Source: a virus. Taken from it: a stretch of DNA of 43,926 nucleotides. This document shows positions 27,079 to 35,707 of this stretch, in pieces. The notes under the pieces were generated by a model that did not search any database, was not told the DNA's origin, and was given only the letters and a program-made list of their open reading frames with translations. The DNA is taken from the UHGV virus genome UHGV-0164981; one strand, written 5' to 3'. Both the position numbers and the translations under genes were made by a program. How positions within the stretch are numbered: the first letter of the stretch is position 1; every line of letters starts with the position of its first letter.

Positions 27079-28479
27079 TTAACCGTCCACATTAAAATCA
27101 ATACGGGTGATATATTTACTACCCCACGCAGAATCGGCCTGAGGGATAGTCGCGTAATCATCTACAGCCTGAACGTTTACCACAGAGCCATCGGAATAGG
27201 TTATGTTGATGCTTGTCGCGCCATTCATGGTTACTTTCGCGGACGCTGTCGAGCGGGTGACAACAACGGCATCGGTTATTACCGGGGATGTTGTATTTTG
27301 GTTTACCTCTACAGTAGCCGCGGATAATTTAACCCCTGAAACGCCATCCCCCGTAAATGACCCGGTAACTCCGTCTGAATATATCCATGCGTCCATCCGT
27401 ATGCTCATTGTTTTATCTTCTGTTGCGGTAATCGTCTCCGATATTCGGAACCACCCTCCGCCTACGTCGGTTACATCTGTACCGCCTGGGCCGGAATAAA
27501 TGCTACCATCCCGCAAATCAACAACTGCTGAGCCTAATACTGTAGGAAGTTCTCGCACGTACATCCGTATGAAATTGTATCCGTTTGCTTTTGCGAAGAA
27601 ACTAAAAGTAACCATGTCGCCAACACCAACGCTAACATCTACAGTCTGGTTTATTAGGTGGTTACCGCTTGTGGCGGTAGCAGTTACGTCGTACGTGCCT
27701 GCGGCTGTTAAAACACCTGTTTCAGATACTGATACACTCACCAAACCTTTGTTCCAGTTTGACGAAGAGAAATTGCTTGAATATAGGAATCTGTTAGTTA
27801 CTGATGCCTCCGGTGGCACACGCCCAACTGCCGAGCCATCGATAAACGTAAGTGGCCATTCACCGGCGGCGGACTGCACAAGATTGCCGTTTCGGTTGAT
27901 GTAATAAACCTGCGGCCCGTCATACACAATGCGGCTATCAAGAGTCGACGCCAGAAGGTTAATCGGCGGGTATCCTGCAGGCCCTTCATTGCTCCAGATG
28001 CGCGGGAACGTCGTCTCGTAGTTCGCATATATTTTCAGGAAACTACCCAGACAGTCCCCGTAACAACCGTACAAATCCGGAAGATTGTTAATCAGGCACT
28101 GGTTCTCAAGGTCCTGGAACGGCGATTTCTCGGCGGTTGCCGTGAAAGTAATCGTCCAGTTAATGCCATCTTCGGTGGACTCAGCGATGGTGGACGTGAT
28201 TGTTACCTGGTAATCCTCAATACCCATGCCGAAGTCGTGCGCCATCCAGAAACTTGACGCACCGCCGTCTACTTTTTCTAGGAACGACAGAAATGCCTGC
28301 CGCCCCAGCGCCGATGTAATCAAGGTTACGCTCACCGGGAACACGTCGTAATATGTGTCGCGTCCCTGACGCACCCCGCCACCGGCTAAATCTACACTCC
28401 AGACGTTGTTGCGTCTGGTCATTGAGTAGCCTTTCGACACAATAGGCTTAAGGCTACGTGGGAAATATAAGTCGGTCAT
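27079..28479 (-). CDS. minor tail protein (distal tail / baseplate hub-like)
   Basis: 466-aa ORF immediately downstream of the tape measure gene (stop/start overlap). Confidence 0.45.
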   Translation of the reverse strand: MTDLYFPRSLKPIVSKGYSMTRRNNVWSVDLAGGGVRQGRDTYYDVFPVSVTLITSALGRQAFLSFLEKVDGGASSFWMAHDFGMGIEDYQVTITSTIAESTEDGINWTITFTATAEKSPFQDLENQCLINNLPDLYGCYGDCLGSFLKIYANYETTFPRIWSNEGPAGYPPINLLASTLDSRIVYDGPQVYYINRNGNLVQSAAGEWPLTFIDGSAVGRVPPEASVTNRFLYSSNFSSSNWNKGLVSVSVSETGVLTAAGTYDVTATATSGNHLINQTVDVSVGVGDMVTFSFFAKANGYNFIRMYVRELPTVLGSAVVDLRDGSIYSGPGGTDVTDVGGGWFRISETITATEDKTMSIRMDAWIYSDGVTGSFTGDGVSGVKLSAATVEVNQNTTSPVITDAVVVTRSTASAKVTMNGATSINITYSDGSVVNVQAVDDYATIPQADSAWGSKYITRIDFNVDG

Positions 28480-30752
28480 TATTTAAACCCCGGCGCGTTT
28501 CTTGTGGCCTTGCGGGCCTTGCTAATCTTACTGTTGCTGTTCTGCAAAGACGCGGCGACTTGCTCCTCTATGATGATACGCAGACGGCCTTCATCATCTT
28601 GTTCTGTGGATACGTTGCCGATTTGAGAACTTGTGTTGTTTACGATAGTAACATTAGACGGGCCGGAAGAAGACCCGTTTTGCCCCATAATTTCTTTCAT
28701 CTGCTGCGCGGTGCGCACGCGTGATGCACCAGCTGGCATGATAACTTCTGGTTTACCACGTTCTGCGATGGTGGAAGCCTGCCCCGCAGATAACTGACCG
28801 CCCTGTTCACGCGCGGACCGGATAGCGGAAACCTGCGCCATACCTGCACCAACGGCAGCGGCAGCGGCTACAGGGGCCAGGAACGGGCCAACTACAGGTA
28901 TAGCTGCCGTTGACTTGTACGCCTCAATAGCTGCGGTGTACGTGGCGATAGTGGCCTGTACGATAGCGAATGCCTTGTACGCGCCAGAAGCCTCACCCAA
29001 CGCAGACCCGATGTTTGAGGCCATGTTACCAAAGGCCGTTGCCGTTGCATCGGCACGTTTGGTTGCGTATTGCTCGTTGATGGCGTTAAGAGCGGCCTGA
29101 TACTGCTTCTCGCTAATCAAACCCTGCTCGCGGTACTTATCCGCTACCGCCAGTTTCTGCTGTTCCTGGATGTCGAGAAGCTCAAGCTCAGTAGCGTTCT
29201 GACCCATAATCTGAGCCATGAAGTCGTCACCTTTCTGCTGCTTTTCCTGGGCTTCTTTCTGGCGTTTATCCAGTTCATCTTGTCGTTTTTGCCCGGCTTC
29301 GAGGACGATAGCTGTTTTAGCTTGTTCATATTCTTTCAGGGACAACGCGCCCTGGCTGTAGAACTCTTTTGCCTTAGCCAGTTTCTGCTGTTCCTGCGCG
29401 TCGATAGCCTTTAACTCGTCGTTGTTCTGACGGGCCAAAGTGTCGAGGTAATCTTGCGCCTGATTCCGCAATTGCTCTGCTTTCTTGGCGGCGGCTTTTG
29501 CTGCTTTATCGTCGGTTGTCCCCACCCCACCAGTTCCGCCCTTTTTATTAACAAGGCTGGCTAAGTCAATTTCTTGCTTCTTACGCTCGTCGTACTGCTT
29601 GCGCTGTTCCTCAATTTCTTTCTTACGCTGTTTCGAGCGGTCAGTTATTGCCTGTGATTCTGCCTCCGCGCGTTTTATGCTAGCGGCGTACGCGGCGTCG
29701 GCCTCTGCGGTCAGGTTTTTAAATGTTAGCGCCGCCGTTTTGCTCGGGTCAAACACGTCGGCAAGGGTCTGCCCTAACGCTACAGCGTAATCGTCGATGC
29801 GCTGGAACCACGCAATAACCTCGTGAAATGTCTGCTGGATGTCCGGCAACCACTCACGGATAGCATCCGGTATAGTCCCCAGCGAGTCAGACATATCAAC
29901 GGATTTGTCCTCGGTATCGAATGCCAGGTCATTCAAGGCGTCGGAAATAAACTTGAATGACTCATTGAACAGCGCCACCCAATCCTGGAGCGTGGCGGCT
30001 ATCTCATTAGACGCGATGGCGTCGGTAAGCGCCGTGATAGCGTCTTCCGCTGTGGCCGCTTGCTCACCTACGGCGTCGCCAAAACCAGACTGCGCCACCG
30101 CAAGAACAAGACCGTCGAAGGAGTCGGCGAGGCTCGATAACTGGCCGTCTAGCGTCTTAGAGCGCGTCTCCATCGCCCCGGCAAAATCGGTGTTGCCGAT
30201 ATTCAGGAGGTATTTCTGAATCTCTTCGGAGTTCTTCTTAACCGTGGTCGTTACGCCGCGGAACGTGAACGAAACTGTATCTGCCTGTTGCGACGACTTG
30301 ATGCCGAACTCTTTTAAGCGCTCAAATTCAAATGTACTGGCGTCGGCAACTGCCTCAATCATCTGATTAAGGTCTTTACCCATAGCCGCCGCGGTGTTGC
30401 CGTAGGAGATTAACGCCTCTTTGCTGGGGTTCAGACCGAGCGCAACGAGCTTGGTAAACCCCTCTACCGCCTGATTGAGACCATACGGGGTCTCTTTTGC
30501 GAACTGTTGCAGGACGCTGAAAGCCTTAGCCGCGTTCTCGGCGCTCCCGGTCATCGTGATGAGGCCGGAGTTCAGCTTATCGAAGTTTCGCTGGGAATCC
30601 ACCAGCGCGCTGAACACCTGCTTAGCGGTTTCCAGACTGACAACGGCGGCGGCGGCGGCCCCCGCCGCCTTGGTAAGCCCGTTCAGTTGTGATGTGGTTT
30701 TATCGACGCCGGTCGATGATACTCGTACTATCAAGCTAGCGGTATCAGCCAT
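28479..30752 (-). CDS. tail tape measure protein
   Basis: About 757 aa from the ATG at 30752 (GAAGGT RBS); Ala/Gln/Glu/Lys-rich with long heptad-like stretches, Gly-rich segment (GGTGGVGTT) and position downstream of the chaperone pair. Confidence 0.7.
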   Translation of the reverse strand: MADTASLIVRVSSTGVDKTTSQLNGLTKAAGAAAAAVVSLETAKQVFSALVDSQRNFDKLNSGLITMTGSAENAAKAFSVLQQFAKETPYGLNQAVEGFTKLVALGLNPSKEALISYGNTAAAMGKDLNQMIEAVADASTFEFERLKEFGIKSSQQADTVSFTFRGVTTTVKKNSEEIQKYLLNIGNTDFAGAMETRSKTLDGQLSSLADSFDGLVLAVAQSGFGDAVGEQAATAEDAITALTDAIASNEIAATLQDWVALFNESFKFISDALNDLAFDTEDKSVDMSDSLGTIPDAIREWLPDIQQTFHEVIAWFQRIDDYAVALGQTLADVFDPSKTAALTFKNLTAEADAAYAASIKRAEAESQAITDRSKQRKKEIEEQRKQYDERKKQEIDLASLVNKKGGTGGVGTTDDKAAKAAAKKAEQLRNQAQDYLDTLARQNNDELKAIDAQEQQKLAKAKEFYSQGALSLKEYEQAKTAIVLEAGQKRQDELDKRQKEAQEKQQKGDDFMAQIMGQNATELELLDIQEQQKLAVADKYREQGLISEKQYQAALNAINEQYATKRADATATAFGNMASNIGSALGEASGAYKAFAIVQATIATYTAAIEAYKSTAAIPVVGPFLAPVAAAAAVGAGMAQVSAIRSAREQGGQLSAGQASTIAERGKPEVIMPAGASRVRTAQQMKEIMGQNGSSSGPSNVTIVNNTSSQIGNVSTEQDDEGRLRIIIEEQVAASLQNSNSKISKARKATRNAPGFK

Positions 30753-31077
30753 GATTTCTACCTTCAAATATTGCTTCTAAGCCCATGATAATGTCTATCT
30801 CGAACAGGCTAAGCTGTTTTTGCGTAACATCGAGATAGGCTTTCAGGTCTTGCCACGTAACAGATTCTCTTGCAAACAATACTACAGCGTCCTCGCGCAC
30901 GTGTCGCGTAAACTTAATGTCGCAATACGTCTCAAAGGTGGATATAAAAAGGGGCGGGCATTCTGGCCCACCCCGTCGCGCTGCACGTTTTTTCTTATCG
31001 ATTACACCCATCGCGATAAGCGCCTGTTCGTGTCCGTCGGCGATAGAATCAAACTCTCTGATTTTATGCTTATCCAC
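30745..31077 (-). CDS. tail assembly chaperone, downstream (T-like) frame, probably expressed as a frameshift fusion
   Basis: ORF has no ATG start in good context; its frame stays open upstream to about 31128 and overlaps the last 6 codons of the upstream chaperone ORF in the -1 frame. Confidence 0.45.
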   Translation of the reverse strand: MDKHKIREFDSIADGHEQALIAMGVIDKKKRAARRGGPECPPLFISTFETYCDIKFTRHVREDAVVLFARESVTWQDLKAYLDVTQKQLSLFEIDIIMGLEAIFEGRNHG

Positions 31078-31109
31078 AAACTCGTAGGTGGCGAACCTGT
31101 ACAGCGCGT

Positions 31110-31526
31110 CTACTTTTCCTGTAATGCTTTACGCTCGGCGTTATGGAACGCCGCCACCTGTGTACCTAATGCCTTGAATTGGTCGAGCAATTTGCTAAAC
31201 GCTTCCTTAGAGAAAGGCTCGTCAAAGCTCCAGCCGTTTACTACTTCTGCCGCAAGTTGCCGGTTGAGGTCTTCTGCCAGTTCGTTAACCGCCATGTTAT
31301 ATTCAGTATAATCACCAGAGTCTTTGGCAGCTTTTTCCAGTTCTTCAAAACGTGCCAGCCCGCGGCGGTACGCAATAATGAAAGCACGCCCCGCTTTAAC
31401 GGCGACATCCGCATCGGGACTTACAACGTTAAGCCATTCACCGGAGTCTTCGCCGTTTGGCAGCAGAATGGGCATCTTCTTGCCTACCAGTGCTTTCTCT
31501 TCGAAATAAAAATCAGAAAGTTTCAT
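31110..31526 (-). CDS. tail assembly chaperone (G-like)
   Basis: 138-aa acidic protein immediately upstream of the tape measure/chaperone pair; ends in GAA AAG TAG where a -1 shift enters the downstream ORF. Confidence 0.5.
   Translation of the reverse strand: MKLSDFYFEEKALVGKKMPILLPNGEDSGEWLNVVSPDADVAVKAGRAFIIAYRRGLARFEELEKAAKDSGDYTEYNMAVNELAEDLNRQLAAEVVNGWSFDEPFSKEAFSKLLDQFKALGTQVAAFHNAERKALQEK
31113..31120 (-). other. candidate -1 programmed ribosomal frameshift site (GAAAAG at the stop codon of the G-like chaperone)
   Basis: Minus-strand sequence ...CAG GAA AAG TAG...; slipping back one base at AAG gives AAA GTA GAC... which is the open frame of the 30745-31077 ORF. Confidence 0.4.
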
Positions 31527-31634
31527 TCTTTAATCCTTTGGTTAAGAGGTTACAGGTTAACGATAAATGCGCCAGACGGGAACCACCCGCTTTTCGTGTG
31601 CGACACTAGGCGCAAACTTATTCTATCACATTAC

Positions 31635-31663
31635 TTGCACACCCCAATATAATAGGGTACTAT
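31635..31663 (+). promoter_or_regulatory. class A promoter (TTGCAC-17 nt-TACTAT) driving the plus-strand cassette
   Basis: TTACTTGCAC accccaatataataggg TACTATTCACTTA; same element as at 9449-9480, 8350-8381 and 41133-41161. Confidence 0.6.
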
Positions 31664-31693
31664 TCACTTACACCAACAATGAAGGGGTTTAAA

Positions 31694-31885
31694 ATGTCCA
31701 GTTTACCAGTTTCCTTAATTCTGTTTGCACTGCTCGCTTATTTCGCGCCTTTCCTGGTTGCGTACTTCCGTAACCATAAAGCGAAGTTAGCGATATTCAT
31801 GGCTAATCTGTTTCTTGGTTGGGTTCTGCTGCCGTGGGTATTTATCTTAATCTGGGCGTGCAACTCGAATGTCAAAGAGAAGTGA
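31694..31885 (+). CDS. small two-TM membrane protein, superinfection-immunity-like
   Basis: About 63 aa from the second ATG (AAGGGG RBS): MSSLPVSLILFALLAYFAPFLVAYFRNHKAKLAIFMANLFLGWVLLPWVFILIWA; the YF.P..VA..R.H....I...N.FLGW pattern matches my recollection of the small Imm-type superinfection immunity family. Confidence 0.5.
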   Translation: MSSLPVSLILFALLAYFAPFLVAYFRNHKAKLAIFMANLFLGWVLLPWVFILIWACNSNVKEK

Positions 31886-31923
31886 GCTAGTATAGGACAA
31901 ATCCTAAACACGAGGAAGTAAGC

Positions 31924-33054
31924 ATGGCCCAGAAGAAAATAACCGACGAACAGTTACAGGAAGAATTGAACGCCGGGATGAAGAATGTAGACATCGCCCG
32001 TAAATACGGCATCTCAGACCGCGTTATTCGTATCCGTAAAGCGAAGCTGGCTAAGAAAGGCGTAGGTCACGGGCGAGACGTTAGTCACCTTGTGCCCGAT
32101 GGCTACAAGATTAAGGGTACATCGTCTCTGGTGGACGAGTTCGGCAACACTAAGTTGCAATGGGTTAAGACCGACACCGATGCCGAACGTCAGGTAGAGT
32201 TGATGAAAGCCGTAATCGAAGGAATGAAATCAGAGATTACGCCAGTCGCCCCTGTTAAAGCGGCACGCGCCAAACGTGACGATAAACTACTCAATCTTTA
32301 CACTGTGTCTGATTTTCATCTCGGTATGCTGGCATGGGCCGATGAGAGCGGCGACGACTGGGATATGAAGATTGCAGAAGACCTGTTCTCTCGATGGTTC
32401 GACGCGGCGTTTCAGAAAGCACCGGACGCGGGAACAGGAGTTATTAACCTTCTGGGCGACCTCGCTCACTTCGATAGTCTGGATGCAGTTACACCTGCAA
32501 GCGGGCATGTTCTTGATGCGGACACGCGCTATCAGAAACTTGTACGCTATATGATTCGGATGGTCCGCCGTGTCATTGATATGGCGCTGGTTAAGCATAA
32601 AAATGTTCGCTTGCTTATCGTGCAAGGGAACCACGACGAAAGCGGAATGATTTGGTTGGCTGAGATGTTCAGTACGCTGTATGACAACGAGCCGCGGGTG
32701 TTCGTCGATACGTCGCCGGATGTTTACAAGATGGTGCAACACGGCAAAACGACGCTGTTCTTTCATCACGGTCACAAAGCACGCTTCGACGCTATCGAAC
32801 CAGTTATGATTGCCAAGTTCCGCAAAGCGTTCGGCGAGAGTATTTACAGCTACGCCCACGTAGGCCATCTGCACCACCAGAAGATTGTAGAAAGCCGTAA
32901 CATGATTGTTGAGCAACACCGCACCTTAGCGGCTAAAGACGCCTACGCCTCTCGCGGCGGATGGATGTCGGGCCGCAGTGCAAATGTAATTACTTATAGC
33001 GCCGAATATGGCGAGGTCGCACGTTTAACTATTTCACCGGAGATGCTGGGATGA
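31924..33054 (+). CDS. HTH domain fused to calcineurin-like metallophosphoesterase (SbcD/Mre11-type motifs)
   Basis: 376 aa; N-terminal NVDIARKYGISDRVIRIRKAKL (HTH-like), then SDFHLG, GDLAHFD, QGNHDE, FFHHGH and GHLHHQ in the canonical order of binuclear metallophosphoesterase motifs. Confidence 0.7.
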   Translation: MAQKKITDEQLQEELNAGMKNVDIARKYGISDRVIRIRKAKLAKKGVGHGRDVSHLVPDGYKIKGTSSLVDEFGNTKLQWVKTDTDAERQVELMKAVIEGMKSEITPVAPVKAARAKRDDKLLNLYTVSDFHLGMLAWADESGDDWDMKIAEDLFSRWFDAAFQKAPDAGTGVINLLGDLAHFDSLDAVTPASGHVLDADTRYQKLVRYMIRMVRRVIDMALVKHKNVRLLIVQGNHDESGMIWLAEMFSTLYDNEPRVFVDTSPDVYKMVQHGKTTLFFHHGHKARFDAIEPVMIAKFRKAFGESIYSYAHVGHLHHQKIVESRNMIVEQHRTLAAKDAYASRGGWMSGRSANVITYSAEYGEVARLTISPEMLG

Positions 33055-33539
33055 AAGATATTGTAATTTTCGATTTAGACGGGACATTGGCCGACGGTAC
33101 CCATCGCTTACACCTGTTACCAAAAGATAACTACGGAGAAACGTGGGCGTGGAAGCCATTTAACATGGCCTGCAAAGATGACGCTCCGATATACGACAAT
33201 ATCCATTTGTGTAGCGTACTGTGGCATTCCGGACTTACTATAATTATCCTTACCGGGCGAAGTGATGACGCTGAGGAGGAGACTCGCGAATGGTTACGAG
33301 AGAATAACGTTAGGTTTGACACGCTAATCATGCGCAGCAAACACGACAACAGAAAAGACATCGTAATTAAAGAAGAGGTGTTGCGTGCTTTCGGACTGGA
33401 AAGAATCTTGTGTGCGTTCGACGACTCTCCAGCGGTAATAAAGCATTTCCGTGACCTCGGCATAACCGCACACGCAGTTACCGAATACGACTGTAACGGG
33501 AACTCTACACACTTAAAACCACACGGGAGCGATAAATAA
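33051..33539 (+). CDS. HAD-superfamily phosphatase (polynucleotide 3'-phosphatase / nucleotidase-like)
   Basis: 162 aa; motif I VIFDLDGTLA, motif II IILTGR, Lys-containing KHDNRKD, motif IV CAFDDS. Layout resembles the phosphatase half of T4 polynucleotide kinase as I recall it. ATGA overlap with the upstream gene. Confidence 0.7.
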   Translation: MKDIVIFDLDGTLADGTHRLHLLPKDNYGETWAWKPFNMACKDDAPIYDNIHLCSVLWHSGLTIIILTGRSDDAEEETREWLRENNVRFDTLIMRSKHDNRKDIVIKEEVLRAFGLERILCAFDDSPAVIKHFRDLGITAHAVTEYDCNGNSTHLKPHGSDK

Positions 33540-34093
33540 TGGCTAAGGTAATTATTCTTAATGGCCCTGCGGGTTGCGGGAAAGACACGCTTGCTATGGC
33601 GCTGGTAGAAATGGGCTTTGCGAAAGGAACTACCAGTTTCAAGAATCCAATGTTCAATATTGCTTTGGCAGCGTTAGGCCAGGATGCTTACCACGAATTT
33701 CTCGACGGCTACGACGACCGGGCGCGGAAAGAAAAACCCGAGGGTTTTCTTAATGGGTTGTCCCGCCGCCAGTTAATGATTGCCATTTCTGAGCAATTCA
33801 TTAAACCGGTATTCGGCGATGATTATTTCGGTAAGTATCTTGCTGAAAACTTGCCTGACGGCGACGAAGTTTTTGTAGTGTCCGACGGTGGATTCGCCAG
33901 TGAAGTTGCCCCTATCGTCGCCGCGGGGCATGACGTGCGAATCGTCCGCCTCCATCGTGACGGCTATACGTTCATCGGCGATAGCCGTGGCTATCTGTAC
34001 GATGTTAGTGGTGTAAAAGATTACGACACCTACATCATACCGGGTGACGTTAAATCGAACGTTATAGACATTGCTTTAAAATTAGGTTTGTAA
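33539..34093 (+). CDS. P-loop kinase (dNMP kinase-like / polynucleotide kinase-like)
   Basis: 184 aa; Walker A ILNGPAGCGKDT at the N-terminus (GKDT as in T4-type dNMP kinase), later Arg-rich lid-like segments; start overlaps the upstream stop (TAATG). Confidence 0.65.
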   Translation: MAKVIILNGPAGCGKDTLAMALVEMGFAKGTTSFKNPMFNIALAALGQDAYHEFLDGYDDRARKEKPEGFLNGLSRRQLMIAISEQFIKPVFGDDYFGKYLAENLPDGDEVFVVSDGGFASEVAPIVAAGHDVRIVRLHRDGYTFIGDSRGYLYDVSGVKDYDTYIIPGDVKSNVIDIALKLGL

Positions 34094-34124: not shown

Positions 34125-35288
34125 TGCGTAGGTGATACGCTGGATAACAATAGACGACTGGTACTGGTTGCCAGTAGCCTGGCCTTCAATGGACTGAGTG
34201 ATTGACTCGGGTCCGCCAATCTCTGGTGTTACTGCTGTAAGCTCTGCGCGTTTCAAACTGAAAGACATCGCCCCGTTTACCCCAGCCAGAATAGAGTTAA
34301 TCTCTACCTGCTGTTCGTTGATAAACTTCTGGATCATCGCCATGTCGTACAGCTTGCCAGAGATAGAGAATGTGTTAGCTGCGCGTCCACGTTCGACGAA
34401 CGCCACGCTACTGTTACCGAGTTCGAACTGCGCGGAAGCTCCGTTGTCGTTGGTGATGGTGAGAGTATCGCAACGCAACGGCGTGGAGCCATCGAACACC
34501 GACACATCTACCGACGAGAACGGCTCATCGGTGAACGTAACCTGAGAGAAATCAGAGCCAGACGGCGGCGCGGTAAGAATCTCCTGACTCAGGCCGATGA
34601 ACGGGAAGCTGCCGGTGACCATGGCGTTAACCGCCTGCTCTACGGTAAAGCCAGAGATTTCCACACCTTTGGTCAGCATGTACGCGTCCGGGTTACCACA
34701 CTGGCCCTTGAACCACGTCAGGATGGAGAACGTCTTACACGCGTTACCGGTTTCCAGCTTGTCGCCAGTTTTTGCGTCAGTGGTTACTGTCTCTGCTGTC
34801 AGCGTGTGCTGAATACCTGCGCCCGTAACTACCAGAGCGGAAACCGCGGTCACGATAAACGGTTTTGCGTTGTCGCCGGTTAAGTCGGTGAACGCAATCA
34901 GGTCGCCAACTTCTACACCGTCAGTAATGAAGCTACCGGCAGCGCGGGTGAATGTTTTACCTGCTGGGGCGACCGTAATTTCGGCGCCAGTAATCTCTAC
35001 CCCAGCTTGCCACGTAGAAGTCATCGCTCCCGCAAGGAAATCATCCTGGCTACGAGAGCTAAGTTCGATGGCGTACTCCCCGCTAACCTGTTTGTTACCG
35101 GTTCGGATGGATGTAGTTTCACGGCTGCCGTCTAGTTCGTTGGAAGTCAGCGCATCGCGGGTTACGGCAGGAACACCGCCAGTGTTACGCAACGGCGACC
35201 AGACAGGGTTAGCCGGTGTTACGCCCGGGGTAGTTTCCGCCACATAGAATTGCGCGGTATTCGCGCCCTTAAAAGGAGTTGTAGCCAT
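34122..35288 (-). CDS. major tail protein (putative)
   Basis: About 388 aa from the ATG at about 35288 (AAGAGG RBS); track ORF begins at a GTG at 35294. Position between connector genes and chaperones. Confidence 0.5.
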   Translation of the reverse strand: MATTPFKGANTAQFYVAETTPGVTPANPVWSPLRNTGGVPAVTRDALTSNELDGSRETTSIRTGNKQVSGEYAIELSSRSQDDFLAGAMTSTWQAGVEITGAEITVAPAGKTFTRAAGSFITDGVEVGDLIAFTDLTGDNAKPFIVTAVSALVVTGAGIQHTLTAETVTTDAKTGDKLETGNACKTFSILTWFKGQCGNPDAYMLTKGVEISGFTVEQAVNAMVTGSFPFIGLSQEILTAPPSGSDFSQVTFTDEPFSSVDVSVFDGSTPLRCDTLTITNDNGASAQFELGNSSVAFVERGRAANTFSISGKLYDMAMIQKFINEQQVEINSILAGVNGAMSFSLKRAELTAVTPEIGGPESITQSIEGQATGNQYQSSIVIQRITYA

Positions 35289-35290
35289 AT

Positions 35291-35707
35291 TCACAGCCTC
35301 TTGGTGAATGCAATAAAGTTAATTGACAATGGTCTTTTGGCCCATCCGTTTTCTACAATCAGCGGCCCCAGGCTAACCGATTGAACCTCGGCGCAGATGT
35401 CGTTACGTGAAAATGACTTACCTGCTTTAAACGCCGTGTTAAGTAAGTCTGCCATTTTATTGATTGGCGCGCTACCTTTCACCGATGCGCAGTTAATGTC
35501 TACCTGATAAACACCTGAGCGTTGTTCAGTGAAGAACAAGTCTGCCTGTTCCGTATCTGCCAGCAACATGTAACTTGCCAGATACGGCGTATCGGTTGAC
35601 GTCGGCGCGTCGATGTTTTCAAGCGCGACCTTGATGCCGTTGGTTGTCCCGAAGGCTACCAGCGGCACGTCGAACGCTTTGGTTAAGTCCTCAAAGTAGC
35701 CCATCAT
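35291..35707 (-). CDS. tail/neck protein (tail terminator-like position)
   Basis: 138-aa ORF immediately upstream of the major tail gene; call by position. Confidence 0.35.
   Translation of the reverse strand: MMGYFEDLTKAFDVPLVAFGTTNGIKVALENIDAPTSTDTPYLASYMLLADTEQADLFFTEQRSGVYQVDINCASVKGSAPINKMADLLNTAFKAGKSFSRNDICAEVQSVSLGPLIVENGWAKRPLSINFIAFTKRL

What the first reader, a model, noticed from the sequence alone, without database searches (positions are those of the whole stretch)
31105..31130. Candidate -1 programmed frameshift joining the two tail assembly chaperone ORFs
The upstream chaperone ORF ends ...CAG GAA AAG TAG. The downstream ORF (30745-31077) has no good ATG start, but its reading frame is open back to about 31128 and overlaps the last six codons of the upstream ORF in the -1 frame. 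Slippage at A AAG next to the stop codon would produce a fusion protein, as in the conserved G/GT mechanism of long-tailed phages.
Basis: partly seen in the sequence, partly recalled or inferred. Interest (0 to 1): 0.4.

Follow-up and report, generated by a model that had tools for sequence, protein, structure and literature searches.

The report
Tail chaperone G/GT -1 frameshift site
This is the expected ribosomal frameshift that makes the fused tail-assembly chaperone of a K1G-like E. coli phage; relatives already annotate it, but it uses a minimal A_AAG-plus-stop slip site with a conserved RNA helix just downstream that I found no paper describing.

Summary
On the minus strand the G-like chaperone ORF (31526-31110) ends CAG GAA AAG TAG. 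The -1 frame is open from 31128 and runs to 30745 with no conserved start. It encodes a Phage_TAC_18 domain directly upstream of the tape measure gene. The window is a Kagunavirus about 98% identical to K1ind2, and RefSeq and GenBank records of relatives already annotate a joined 'frameshift product'. The frameshift as such is therefore known by annotation, though not by experiment.

New here: across about 130 related loci the only invariant junction nucleotides are A_AAG plus an adjacent stop. The preceding codon varies (GAA, GCA, GTA, TCA, CAA, AAA, GGA). In five loci a -1-frame stop leaves only A_AAG as a possible slip site. Some lineages carry canonical A_AAA_AAG or G_GGA_AAG at the same spot.

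A helix starts 4-5 nt after AAG. Its 5' arm (GCGCUGUA) is frozen at synonymous sites. It pairs with a 3' arm that lies at +50, +81, +135 or +209 depending on lineage, with compensatory changes. In the window it pairs 31108-31099 with 30986-30977.

Most likely mechanism: tRNA-Lys slips -1 on A_AAG, helped by the helix and the stop, giving ...LQEK-VDALY....

The parts
31110..31526 (-). G-like tail assembly chaperone ORF (138 aa plus TAG stop). This is the 0-frame product.
   Evidence: ORF list. Pfam PF08748 Phage_TAC_4 at 26.9 bits, above the 21.1 cut-off. PHROG 15027 positions 1-138. Annotated 'tail assembly chaperone' in K1ind2, Bas74 and fTaEco01.
31113..31119 (-). Slip site G_GAA_AAG. The essential part is the tetramer A_AAG (31116-31113). 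tRNA-Lys re-pairs from AAG to AAA in the -1 frame.
   Evidence: Sequence. A_AAG is present in all 87 intact loci and 45 of 46 (the other has A_AAA_AAA). The preceding codon varies but always ends in A. The -1-frame window is pinned to this tetramer in L044, L046, L136, L139 and L161. A_AAG is the most shift-prone tetramer in E. coli (PMC4066793).
31110..31112 (-). 0-frame stop TAG, directly 3' of the slip codon. It lies in the spacer between the slip site and the helix.
   Evidence: A stop (TAG, TAA, rarely TGA) is directly adjacent in 86/87 loci and 45/46 loci. The T-frame Val codon is GTA in 27/28 representatives and the next codon always starts with A or G, which preserves the stop.
31129..31131 (-). 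TAA in the -1 frame. It is the upstream limit of the window in which the shift can occur.
30745..31113 (-). T-like -1-frame extension (122 codons from GTA at 31113-31111, plus TGA stop at 30747-30745). The predicted GT fusion is join(31526..31113, 31113..30745), 260 aa, with junction ...ALQEK-VDALYRF...
   Evidence: Pfam PF23812 Phage_TAC_18 at 1.1e-18. PHROG 15027 positions 137-259. tblastn homology in 494 phage records begins at residues 1-4 of the open frame. No conserved start codon.
31099..31108 (-). 5' arm of the candidate stimulatory helix (CGCGCUGUAC). It starts 4 nt after AAG.
   Evidence: GCG YTG is invariant at synonymous sites in 28/28 representatives. It is paired in the MFE with P=0.99 and in both the MFE and the centroid.
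30977..30986 (-). 3' arm of the helix (GUGCAGCGCG), 112 nt downstream of the 5' arm, in the variable linker of T (KRAARR).
   Evidence: 10 bp including one G-U, duplex -17.4 kcal/mol. The same alignment columns pair in the whole site-A clade, with CG-to-UA and other double changes.
28479..30752 (-). Tape measure protein gene. The ATG at 30752 overlaps the T stop (ATGGCTGA).
   Evidence: Annotation in relatives. Pfam TMP_3 at 38.8 bits, just under its 41-bit cut-off.

Best explanation
Most ribosomes translating the tail assembly chaperone gene stop at TAG 31112-31110 and release the 138-aa G-like protein.

A minority slip back one nucleotide at A_AAG (31116-31113). The single E. coli tRNA-Lys, reading AAG, re-pairs with the overlapping AAA. 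Translation then continues with GUA (Val) in the -1 frame. The product is a 260-aa G-T fusion (...ALQEK-VDALYRF...) that ends 8 nt inside the tape measure gene.

Two conserved features probably promote the slip:
- An RNA helix whose 5' arm begins 4-5 nt after AAG. In this phage 31108-31099 pairs with 30986-30977. This places the helix at the ribosome's mRNA entrance when AAG is in the A site.
- The 0-frame stop codon directly after AAG, which gives a slow-to-decode A site after translocation.

By analogy with lambda, G and the G part of GT would coat the tape measure protein, and the T part would recruit the tube protein.

What is shown:
- the frames;
- the protein families;
- conservation of A_AAG plus the stop;
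- the lack of any conserved start;
- conservation of the helix, with covariation.

What is inferred:
- that the fusion is actually made, and at what rate;
- that the helix and the stop stimulate the shift;
- the roles of G and GT in assembly.

The confidence of 0.8 is for the -1 shift at A_AAG producing the fusion. For the helix acting as a stimulator my confidence is about 0.6.
For: Context:
- The window is a Kagunavirus, about 98% identical to K1ind2, K1ind3 and phage P AB-2017 over this region.
- RefSeq K1ind2, GenBank fTaEco01 and RefSeq fFiEco02 (NC_073316) carry a two-piece joined CDS here; fFiEco02's is labelled 'frameshift product'.
- Pfam gives TAC_4 for G and TAC_18 for T. Both halves fit one 259-position PHROG built from fused proteins.

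Slip site:
- A_AAG with an adjacent stop is found in 86/87 loci and 44/46 loci.
- The preceding codon is GAA, GCA, GTA, TCA, CAA, AAA or GGA, but always NNA.
- The same position holds canonical G_GGA_AAG (L020, L131, L158) or A_AAA_AAG (L074, L143, L150-154) in some lineages.
- A -1-frame stop two codons upstream pins the slip to A_AAG in L044, L046, L136, L139 and L161.
- Synonymous freezing covers A AAG GTA Rnn GCG YTG, whereas other conserved residues vary freely at third positions.

No independent start:
- There is no conserved start codon.

Helix:
- In all 28 representatives the best Watson-Crick partner of +4..+22 ends at +135/136 or +204 to +211, mostly +209. The MFE partner is at one of these two sites in most representatives.
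- Site A is 86% paired against 19-52% when slid, with five pairs changed on both sides, including CG:25/UA:16 with none unpaired.
- Site B is 91% paired against 24-49% when slid, with four pairs showing compensatory changes.
- Distant relatives have a plain local stem-loop at the same start (L143: A_AAA_AAG, 5-nt spacer, 10-bp stem; L150-154).

Literature:
- A_AAG is the best tetramer in E. coli, giving 5.6% with a downstream pseudoknot and near background without one (PMC4066793).
- A_AAG single-tRNA slippage is used in B. subtilis cdd and in IS1222 (PMC5009743).
Against: - There is no experimental evidence for the fusion protein in any Guernseyvirinae phage in the searchable literature.
- The site is not a canonical heptamer. 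After a -1 shift, the P-site tRNA-Glu would face GGA. The announcement of the related phage Shashou states there is 'no canonical slippery sequence' (PMC6776780).
- In the window itself the helix is only 10 bp (7 contiguous Watson-Crick pairs) across a 112-nt loop. 12.5% of control 19-nt windows in the same gene find a complement at least as long.
- The fold of 30965-31119 is no more stable than shuffles (z = -0.30).
- CAGCGC-type hexamers are common in Ala/Arg/Gln coding sequence, so some complementarity is expected by chance.
- Covariation counts are per sequence, not per independent event.
- The 4-nt spacer is at the short end of known -1 frameshift cassettes.
Confidence: 0.8

Rival explanations
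1. The frameshift at A_AAG is real but is driven only by the adjacent stop codon (a 'shifty stop', where P-site tRNA-Lys slips while the A site waits for a release factor). On this view the conserved helix serves another purpose, such as mRNA stability, RNase III processing, occlusion of internal starts, or control of expression of the downstream tape measure gene.
For: - The stop is directly adjacent in about 130 of 133 loci.
- The Val codon GTA and the following R are frozen so as to keep the stop.
- The window's helix is modest and long-range.
- A terminator-like hairpin sits 2 nt after the 3' arm. This hints at a transcriptional role for structure in this region.
Against: - The helix start is fixed at +5/+6 from the slip site in every lineage, while its 3' partner moves. 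That pattern is what one expects of a frameshift stimulator.
- In L083 and L122 the stop has moved one codon downstream, yet the spacing from A_AAG to the helix is unchanged.
- A_AAG alone is near background without a downstream stimulator in E. coli reporters (PMC4066793).
Confidence: 0.2
2. There is no frameshift. The T-like protein is made on its own, either from the GTG at 31077 or by termination-reinitiation at the CTG at 31104-31102, a few nucleotides after the G stop.
For: - ORF listing finds a GTG-initiated 110-aa ORF.
- Several GenBank records annotate a separate downstream CDS, for example Bas74 from the CTG, UTI-CM001 and Jersey.
- Codon 3 of the T frame is always CTG or TTG.
- AGGA lies 12 nt upstream of it in some lineages.
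Against: - GTG 31077 is GTC in Bas74 and is absent in most lineages.
- Seventeen of 28 representatives have no ATG, GTG or TTG in the first 25 codons, and none has an ATG.
- CTG is a very poor initiator in E. coli (general knowledge).
- The YTG codon is explained by its place in the helix arm.
- Val and Ala upstream of it are 100% conserved in the T frame.
- This rival does not explain the invariant A before AAG, nor the canonical heptamers at the same site in relatives.
Confidence: 0.06
3. The frame change arises at the RNA level. RNA polymerase slips on the A run and drops one A in a fraction of transcripts.
For: The junction contains AAAA (31117-31114).
Against: - By general knowledge, productive transcriptional slippage in bacteria needs runs of about 8-9 or more identical bases (reviewed in PMC5009743). 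Here there are four, and only three in the GCA AAG lineages.
- It would not explain the fixed downstream helix or the adjacent stop.
Confidence: 0.02

Closest known systems
Phage lambda G/GT tail assembly chaperone frameshift (Levin, Hendrix and Casjens 1993; Xu, Hendrix and Duda 2004, 2013, 2014; cited through PMC5009743)
   Same: - Two ORFs directly upstream of the tape measure gene.
- The second ORF is in the -1 frame with no start of its own.
- The shift occurs near the end of G and gives a G-T fusion.
- The A-site codon is AAG, read by tRNA-Lys.
   Different: - Lambda uses the canonical heptamer G_GGA_AAG. Here the site is G_GAA_AAG, and in relatives any NNA_AAG.
- Here the 0-frame stop is directly adjacent to the slip codon, and a conserved helix starts 4-5 nt downstream.
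- The chaperones belong to different Pfam families (TAC_4 and TAC_18).
- The tube gene is separated from G by about 2.6 kb of opposite-strand genes.
A_AAG single-tRNA -1 slippage: Bacillus subtilis cdd (A_CGA_AAG) and IS1222 (G_CGA_AAG) (PMC5009743); systematic tetramer study in E. coli (PMC4066793)
   Same: - The minimal Z_ZZN motif is A_AAG with a non-slippery P-site codon ending in A.
- Efficiency is low without a stimulator.
- Efficiency depends on the preceding codon and on flanking elements.
   Different: - By recollection, not checked in the papers read here, cdd relies on an upstream Shine-Dalgarno-like element. No conserved one is present here (by inspection).
- The product here is a structural assembly chaperone.
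IS3 / IS911 / dnaX type bacterial -1 frameshift cassettes (slip site, 5-9 nt spacer, then a stem-loop or pseudoknot)
   Same: - Slip site ending in AAG.
- A short spacer.
- A G+C-rich helix at the mRNA entrance.
- Distant relatives (L143, L150-154) have exactly A_AAA_AAG, a 5-nt spacer and a stem-loop.
   Different: - In the window's lineage the helix closes a 112-nt loop, and about 185 nt in the site-B lineage, rather than a compact hairpin or pseudoknot.
- The 3' arm sits at different places in different lineages.
Long-distance frameshift stimulators of plant RNA viruses (for example umbravirus-like RNAs, PMC10602861; by recollection also barley yellow dwarf virus)
   Same: The sequence adjacent to the slip site pairs with a distant downstream partner.
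   Different: - Those are eukaryotic systems.
- They span kilobase distances.
- They usually pair a bulge or loop of a local element with the 3' end.
- There is no homology.

Membership tests
Lambda-type G/GT tail assembly chaperone pair expressed by -1 programmed frameshifting | Two overlapping ORFs located directly upstream of the tape measure gene, classically downstream of the major tail/tube gene. | tested here: met
   G is 31526-31110, T is 31113-30745 and the tape measure gene starts at 30752. The tube gene (Phage_tube_2, 34125-35294) is upstream but is separated by four opposite-strand genes.
Lambda-type G/GT tail assembly chaperone pair expressed by -1 programmed frameshifting | The upstream ORF and the extension belong to tail assembly chaperone families. 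| tested here: met
   PF08748 Phage_TAC_4 (26.9 bits, above cut-off) and PF23812 Phage_TAC_18 (67.6 bits). PHROG 15027 'tail assembly chaperone' covers both halves.
Lambda-type G/GT tail assembly chaperone pair expressed by -1 programmed frameshifting | The downstream ORF is in the -1 frame, overlaps the end of the upstream ORF, and has no start codon or ribosome binding site of its own. | tested here: met
   The -1 frame is open from 31128. GTG 31077 is not conserved. Seventeen of 28 representatives have no ATG, GTG or TTG in the first 25 codons.
Lambda-type G/GT tail assembly chaperone pair expressed by -1 programmed frameshifting | A canonical X_XXY_YYZ slippery heptamer within the overlap. 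| tested here: not met
   The window has G_GAA_AAG, and GAA is not XXY relative to the preceding G. Only the tetramer A_AAG is conserved. Canonical heptamers occur at this position in some relatives (L020, L074, L143, L150-154).
Lambda-type G/GT tail assembly chaperone pair expressed by -1 programmed frameshifting | The fusion protein is actually produced at a low, fixed ratio to G and is required for tail assembly. | not testable with these tools
   No proteomic or genetic data for this phage group were found.
Bacterial -1 frameshift cassette (slip motif, spacer, downstream RNA structure) | [quoted passage not shown] | tested here: met
   A_AAG shifts to AAA with the single tRNA-Lys. This is the top-ranked tetramer in E. 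coli (PMC4066793). It is present in all but one of the related loci, where the motif is A_AAA_AAA.
Bacterial -1 frameshift cassette (slip motif, spacer, downstream RNA structure) | A stable structure beginning about 5-9 nt 3' of the slip site. | tested here: inconclusive
   The helix start at +5/+6 is conserved and covarying across the family. In the window the helix is 10 bp across a 112-nt loop with a 4-nt spacer. On its own it is not statistically exceptional. Its function was not tested.
'Shifty stop' frameshifting (slippage of P-site tRNA next to a slowly decoded stop) | A stop codon directly 3' of the slippery codon. | tested here: met
   TAG 31112-31110 abuts AAG. The stop is adjacent in about 130 of 133 loci, with synonymous freezing that preserves it. 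Whether it contributes to the shift was not tested.

The most novel reading that the evidence does not exclude
The stimulator is a long-range helix with a fixed 5' arm at the slip site and a 3' arm that has moved at least four times during evolution of this chaperone family (+50, +81, +135, +209).

In the long-range versions the helix encloses 110-190 nt of the T coding region. A ribosome that has just shifted would then hold the helix open while it crosses that stretch. Following ribosomes would not see the stimulator and would terminate. The G:GT ratio would thus limit itself and be buffered against translation rate.

The terminator-like hairpin directly after the 3' arm could additionally tie transcription into the tape measure gene to whether T is being translated.
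Probability: 0.15. Interest if true: 0.7.

Novelty: new variant of a known kind. Interest (0 to 1): 0.4.

Why it matters
The frameshift itself is routine and already annotated in near-identical genomes, so it adds nothing as a discovery. The follow-up has practical and modest conceptual value.

- Annotation: records of this large phage subfamily (Guernseyvirinae, widely used in phage therapy work) are inconsistent. Some join the two ORFs. Many call a separate 'hypothetical protein' from CTG or TTG. One paper states there is no slippery sequence. The comparative data give a precise junction rule (NNA_AAG-stop, fusion ...K-V...) that can be applied across the subfamily.
- Natural example: the site appears to be a conserved natural case of the minimal A_AAG tetramer used productively. 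The same position alternates with canonical heptamers in relatives.
- Candidate stimulator: the downstream helix has a partner arm that has moved while the 5' arm stayed fixed. This is a tractable system for asking how loop size and partner position tune frameshift rate.
- Experimental design: a reporter must include sequence down to about 30970.

Tried and rejected
- Searching the large protein database with the predicted 260-aa fusion returned only four partial hits and no full-length fusions. I could not read the junction that annotators chose. The PHROG profile match served instead.
- RNAalifold over all 28 representatives found only a trivial 3-bp hairpin, because the 3' partner differs between clades. 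Local folds of +1..+70 were unremarkable for the window (z = 0.51). Only folding +1..+220 and splitting by clade revealed the helix.
- The overall fold energy of 30965-31119 is not better than shuffles (z = -0.30). Support for the helix is comparative, not thermodynamic.
- I looked for a conserved upstream Shine-Dalgarno-like stimulator as in dnaX or cdd. AAGGAG occurs 11 nt upstream in Jersey only and is not conserved.
- A stem seen in several +1..+70 folds (GCUGU with ACAGC of the FDSI motif at about +63) is absent from the window and is outcompeted in longer folds. I set it aside.
- The genome-contig scan gave a single locus.
- Literature searches for Kagunavirus or K1-ind together with frameshift found nothing on mechanism.
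- Independent initiation, transcriptional slippage and a non-coding T region were considered and rejected, as set out under the rivals. The T region shows free synonymous variation at conserved residues and a strong Pfam match.

Full report
**What is there.**
- On the minus strand a 138-aa ORF runs from ATG 31526 and ends ...AAA GCA TTA CAG GAA AAG TAG, with the stop at 31112-31110.
- The -1 frame has a TAA at 31131-31129. It is then open from 31128 to the TGA at 30747-30745.
- The only start-to-stop ORF in that frame begins at GTG 31077.
- The tape measure gene follows. Its ATG at 30752 overlaps the -1-frame stop (ATGGCTGA).

**What the proteins are.**
- The upstream ORF matches Pfam Phage_TAC_4 at 26.9 bits, above its cut-off.
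- The -1-frame product matches Phage_TAC_18 at 1.1e-18.
- In PHROGs both hit the same family, 15027 'tail assembly chaperone'. The upstream ORF covers profile positions 1-138 and the -1-frame product covers positions 137-259. The profile was therefore built from fused proteins with the junction at the lysine.
- The tube protein (Phage_tube_2) is at 34125-35294. It is separated from the chaperone gene by four opposite-strand genes.

**Where the window comes from, and what is already known.**
- The region is 96-98% identical to the Kagunavirus phages K1ind2, K1ind3, K1G and P AB-2017.
- RefSeq K1ind2 (ORF21A/21B), GenBank fTaEco01 and RefSeq fFiEco02 (NC_073316) annotate a two-piece joined CDS here. 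fFiEco02's is labelled 'frameshift product'.
- Other records instead call a separate downstream CDS (Bas74, UTI-CM001, Jersey).
- The announcement of the related phage Shashou says there is 'no canonical slippery sequence' between chaperone and tape measure (PMC6776780).
- I found no paper with experimental evidence or a mechanism for this phage group.
- The frameshift is therefore known by annotation, annotated inconsistently, and untested.

**Locating the slip site by comparison.**
- I collected 8 annotated phage loci, 80 IMG/VR loci and 72 metagenome or genome loci encoding relatives down to about 35% identity.
- Among the first 87 intact junctions, all have A_AAG, and 86 have a stop directly after it.
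- Among 46 more divergent junctions, 44 have A_AAG with an adjacent stop. One has A_AAG with the stop one codon later (L122), and one has A_AAA_AAA with an adjacent stop (L152).
- The codon before AAG is GAA, GCA, GTA, TCA, CAA, AAA or GGA. The amino acid is free but the third base is always A.
- In L044, L046, L136, L139 and L161 a -1-frame stop lies two codons upstream. The only possible slip is then on (C_GC)A_AAG.
- In some lineages the same position holds the classical heptamers G_GGA_AAG (L020, L131, L158) or A_AAA_AAG (L074, L143, L150-154).
- In 28 representatives below 90% nucleotide identity, the block A AAG GTA Rnn GCG YTG is frozen. AAG is 28/28, GTA is 27/28, the next codon always starts with a purine (which keeps TAR in frame 0), GCG is 28/28 and YTG is 28/28. 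Other fully conserved residues (L120, F159, D160, I162) use all their synonymous codons.
- This is the signature of a recoding signal, not of protein constraint.

**No independent start.**
- GTG 31077 is GTC in Bas74.
- Seventeen of 28 representatives have no ATG, GTG or TTG in the first 25 T-frame codons, and none has an ATG.
- tblastn homology in 494 phage records begins at residues 1-4 of the open frame, upstream of any candidate start.

**A conserved helix next to the slip site.**
- The frozen GCG YTG suggested an RNA element.
- Folding +1..+220 pairs the segment starting at +5/+6 with a distant complement in most representatives, at about +127-136 or about +197-209.
- The best Watson-Crick complement of +4..+22 within +30..+260 ends at +135/136 or at +204 to +211 (mostly +209) in all 28.
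- In the +209 group the helices are 10-16 bp, and in most of that group they exceed every control window of the same gene. In the +135 group, which includes the window, they are 7-10 bp and individually less exceptional. For the window, 12.5% of controls do as well.
- Site A pair counts: 86% of cells are paired against 19-52% when the partner is slid. Five pairs change on both sides, including one with CG in 25 sequences, UA in 16 and none unpaired (GCGCUG/CAGCGC against GCGUUG/CAACGC).
- Site B pair counts: 91% of cells are paired against 24-49% when slid. Four pairs show compensatory changes (L027, L074, L083, L087).
- Seven sequences carry both 3' arms.
- In more distant relatives the same 5' position opens a compact stem-loop. 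L143 has A_AAA_AAG, a 5-nt spacer and a 10-bp stem with its partner at +50. L150-154 have a different arm sequence (GCCCUGCU) with the partner at +81.
- The constant features are thus the slip site and the helix start. The 3' arm has moved.
- In the window the helix is CGCGCUGUAC (31108-31099) paired with GUGCAGCGCG (30986-30977). It is 10 bp with one G-U and has a duplex energy of -17.4 kcal/mol.
- It is present in both the MFE and the centroid fold, although the total fold energy is no better than shuffles.

**Mechanism.**
- With GAA in the P site and AAG in the A site, the first helix pair lies at about +11 from the first P-site nucleotide. From general knowledge of -1 frameshift cassettes, this is where downstream stimulators act.
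- E. coli has one tRNA-Lys. It pairs weakly with AAG and re-pairs cognately with AAA.
- A_AAG is the most shift-prone tetramer in E. coli. It gives 5.6% with a pseudoknot and near background alone (PMC4066793).
- A_AAG is used naturally in B. subtilis cdd and in IS1222 (PMC5009743).
- After translocation the stop in the A site gives a second opportunity for P-site slippage. In L083 and L122 the stop has moved one codon while the A_AAG-to-helix spacing is kept, so the stop may be secondary.
- Either route gives the same protein, ...ALQEK-VDALYRF... (260 aa).
- The slip-site assignment is well supported. The stimulatory roles of the helix and the stop are inferred.

**Limits.**
- Nothing here shows that the fusion is made, or at what rate.
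- Covariation counts are per sequence, not per evolutionary event.
- CAGCGC-like words are common in this coding sequence, so chance partners exist. A further candidate lies near +94 in the EAAL motif.
- The window's own helix would not stand on its own statistics.

**Verdict.**
- The frameshift is an ordinary, already annotated G/GT case.
- The details form a variant of the known kind and are worth a reporter experiment: a tetramer with an adjacent stop, canonical heptamers alternating at the same site in relatives, and a fixed-start helix with a movable partner.

Noticed in passing
window 30951-30974 (minus strand), followed by TTTTTATAT at 30950-30942: An intrinsic-terminator-like hairpin (GGGGUGGGC CAGAAU GCCCGCCCC plus a U run) lies inside the T coding region, 2 nt after the helix 3' arm. 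It encodes the conserved GPECPPLFI motif. Many relatives show a shorter GGGGCC...GCCCC hairpin with a U-rich tail, but Jersey lacks it. Most ribosomes stop at the G stop, so this stretch is mostly untranslated. The hairpin might therefore attenuate transcription into the tape measure gene.
   Followed up: partly
window 31552-31616 (minus strand); also L004 411-475: The 5' leader of the chaperone gene matches the Rfam int-alpA RNA motif (RF02996). The score is 31.8 bits in the window, below the 35.8 gathering score (E = 2e-4). It is 36.9 bits, above gathering, in the related phage UTI-CM001. I recall the motif as one of unknown function described upstream of integrase and alpA genes. Here it precedes a tail operon of a phage group generally regarded as lytic.
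   Followed up: partly
window 31679-34093 (plus strand): Four opposite-strand genes sit between the tube gene (34125-35294) and the chaperone gene, splitting the tail module. They are a superinfection immunity protein (Imm_superinfect), a metallophosphoesterase-like protein, a PNKP-type HAD phosphatase and an unassigned 184-aa protein. The chaperone-tape measure operon must therefore have its own promoter in 31527-31680. The simple sigma-70 scan found no minus-strand candidate there.
   Followed up: partly
L032, L044, L046, L050-L052, L064 (site-A region about +120-142 and site-B region about +190-216 from the slip site): Seven sequences carry the complementary hexamer at both the +135 and the +209 partner positions. 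They may be evolutionary intermediates in the relocation of the 3' arm, or they may use alternative pairings.
   Followed up: no
L005 and L023 (Salmonella phage SS3e, NC_006940.2): In this older RefSeq record the G-like ORF is broken across three frames and annotated as a truncated 85-aa CDS. The junction CAG GAA AAG TAG and the T frame are intact. The breaks are probably sequencing errors in the record.
   Followed up: no
L090 (NZ_JACVEL010000023.1, labelled Taishania pollutisoli, 13-kb contig): The only hit in the 185,579-species genome collection is a Jerseyvirus-type GT locus. It has the junction CAG GAA AAG TAG ACGCGTTGTTTC and a 10-bp site-A helix. It sits on a short contig of an assembly of an organism that I believe is not an enterobacterium (taxonomy not looked up). 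It looks like phage contamination rather than a prophage.
   Followed up: no
window 30752 versus 30767 (minus strand): The mechanical ORF list starts the tape measure ORF at TTG 30767. The ATG at 30752, which overlaps the T stop as ATGGCTGA and follows AAGG, matches the start used in annotated relatives.
   Followed up: yes
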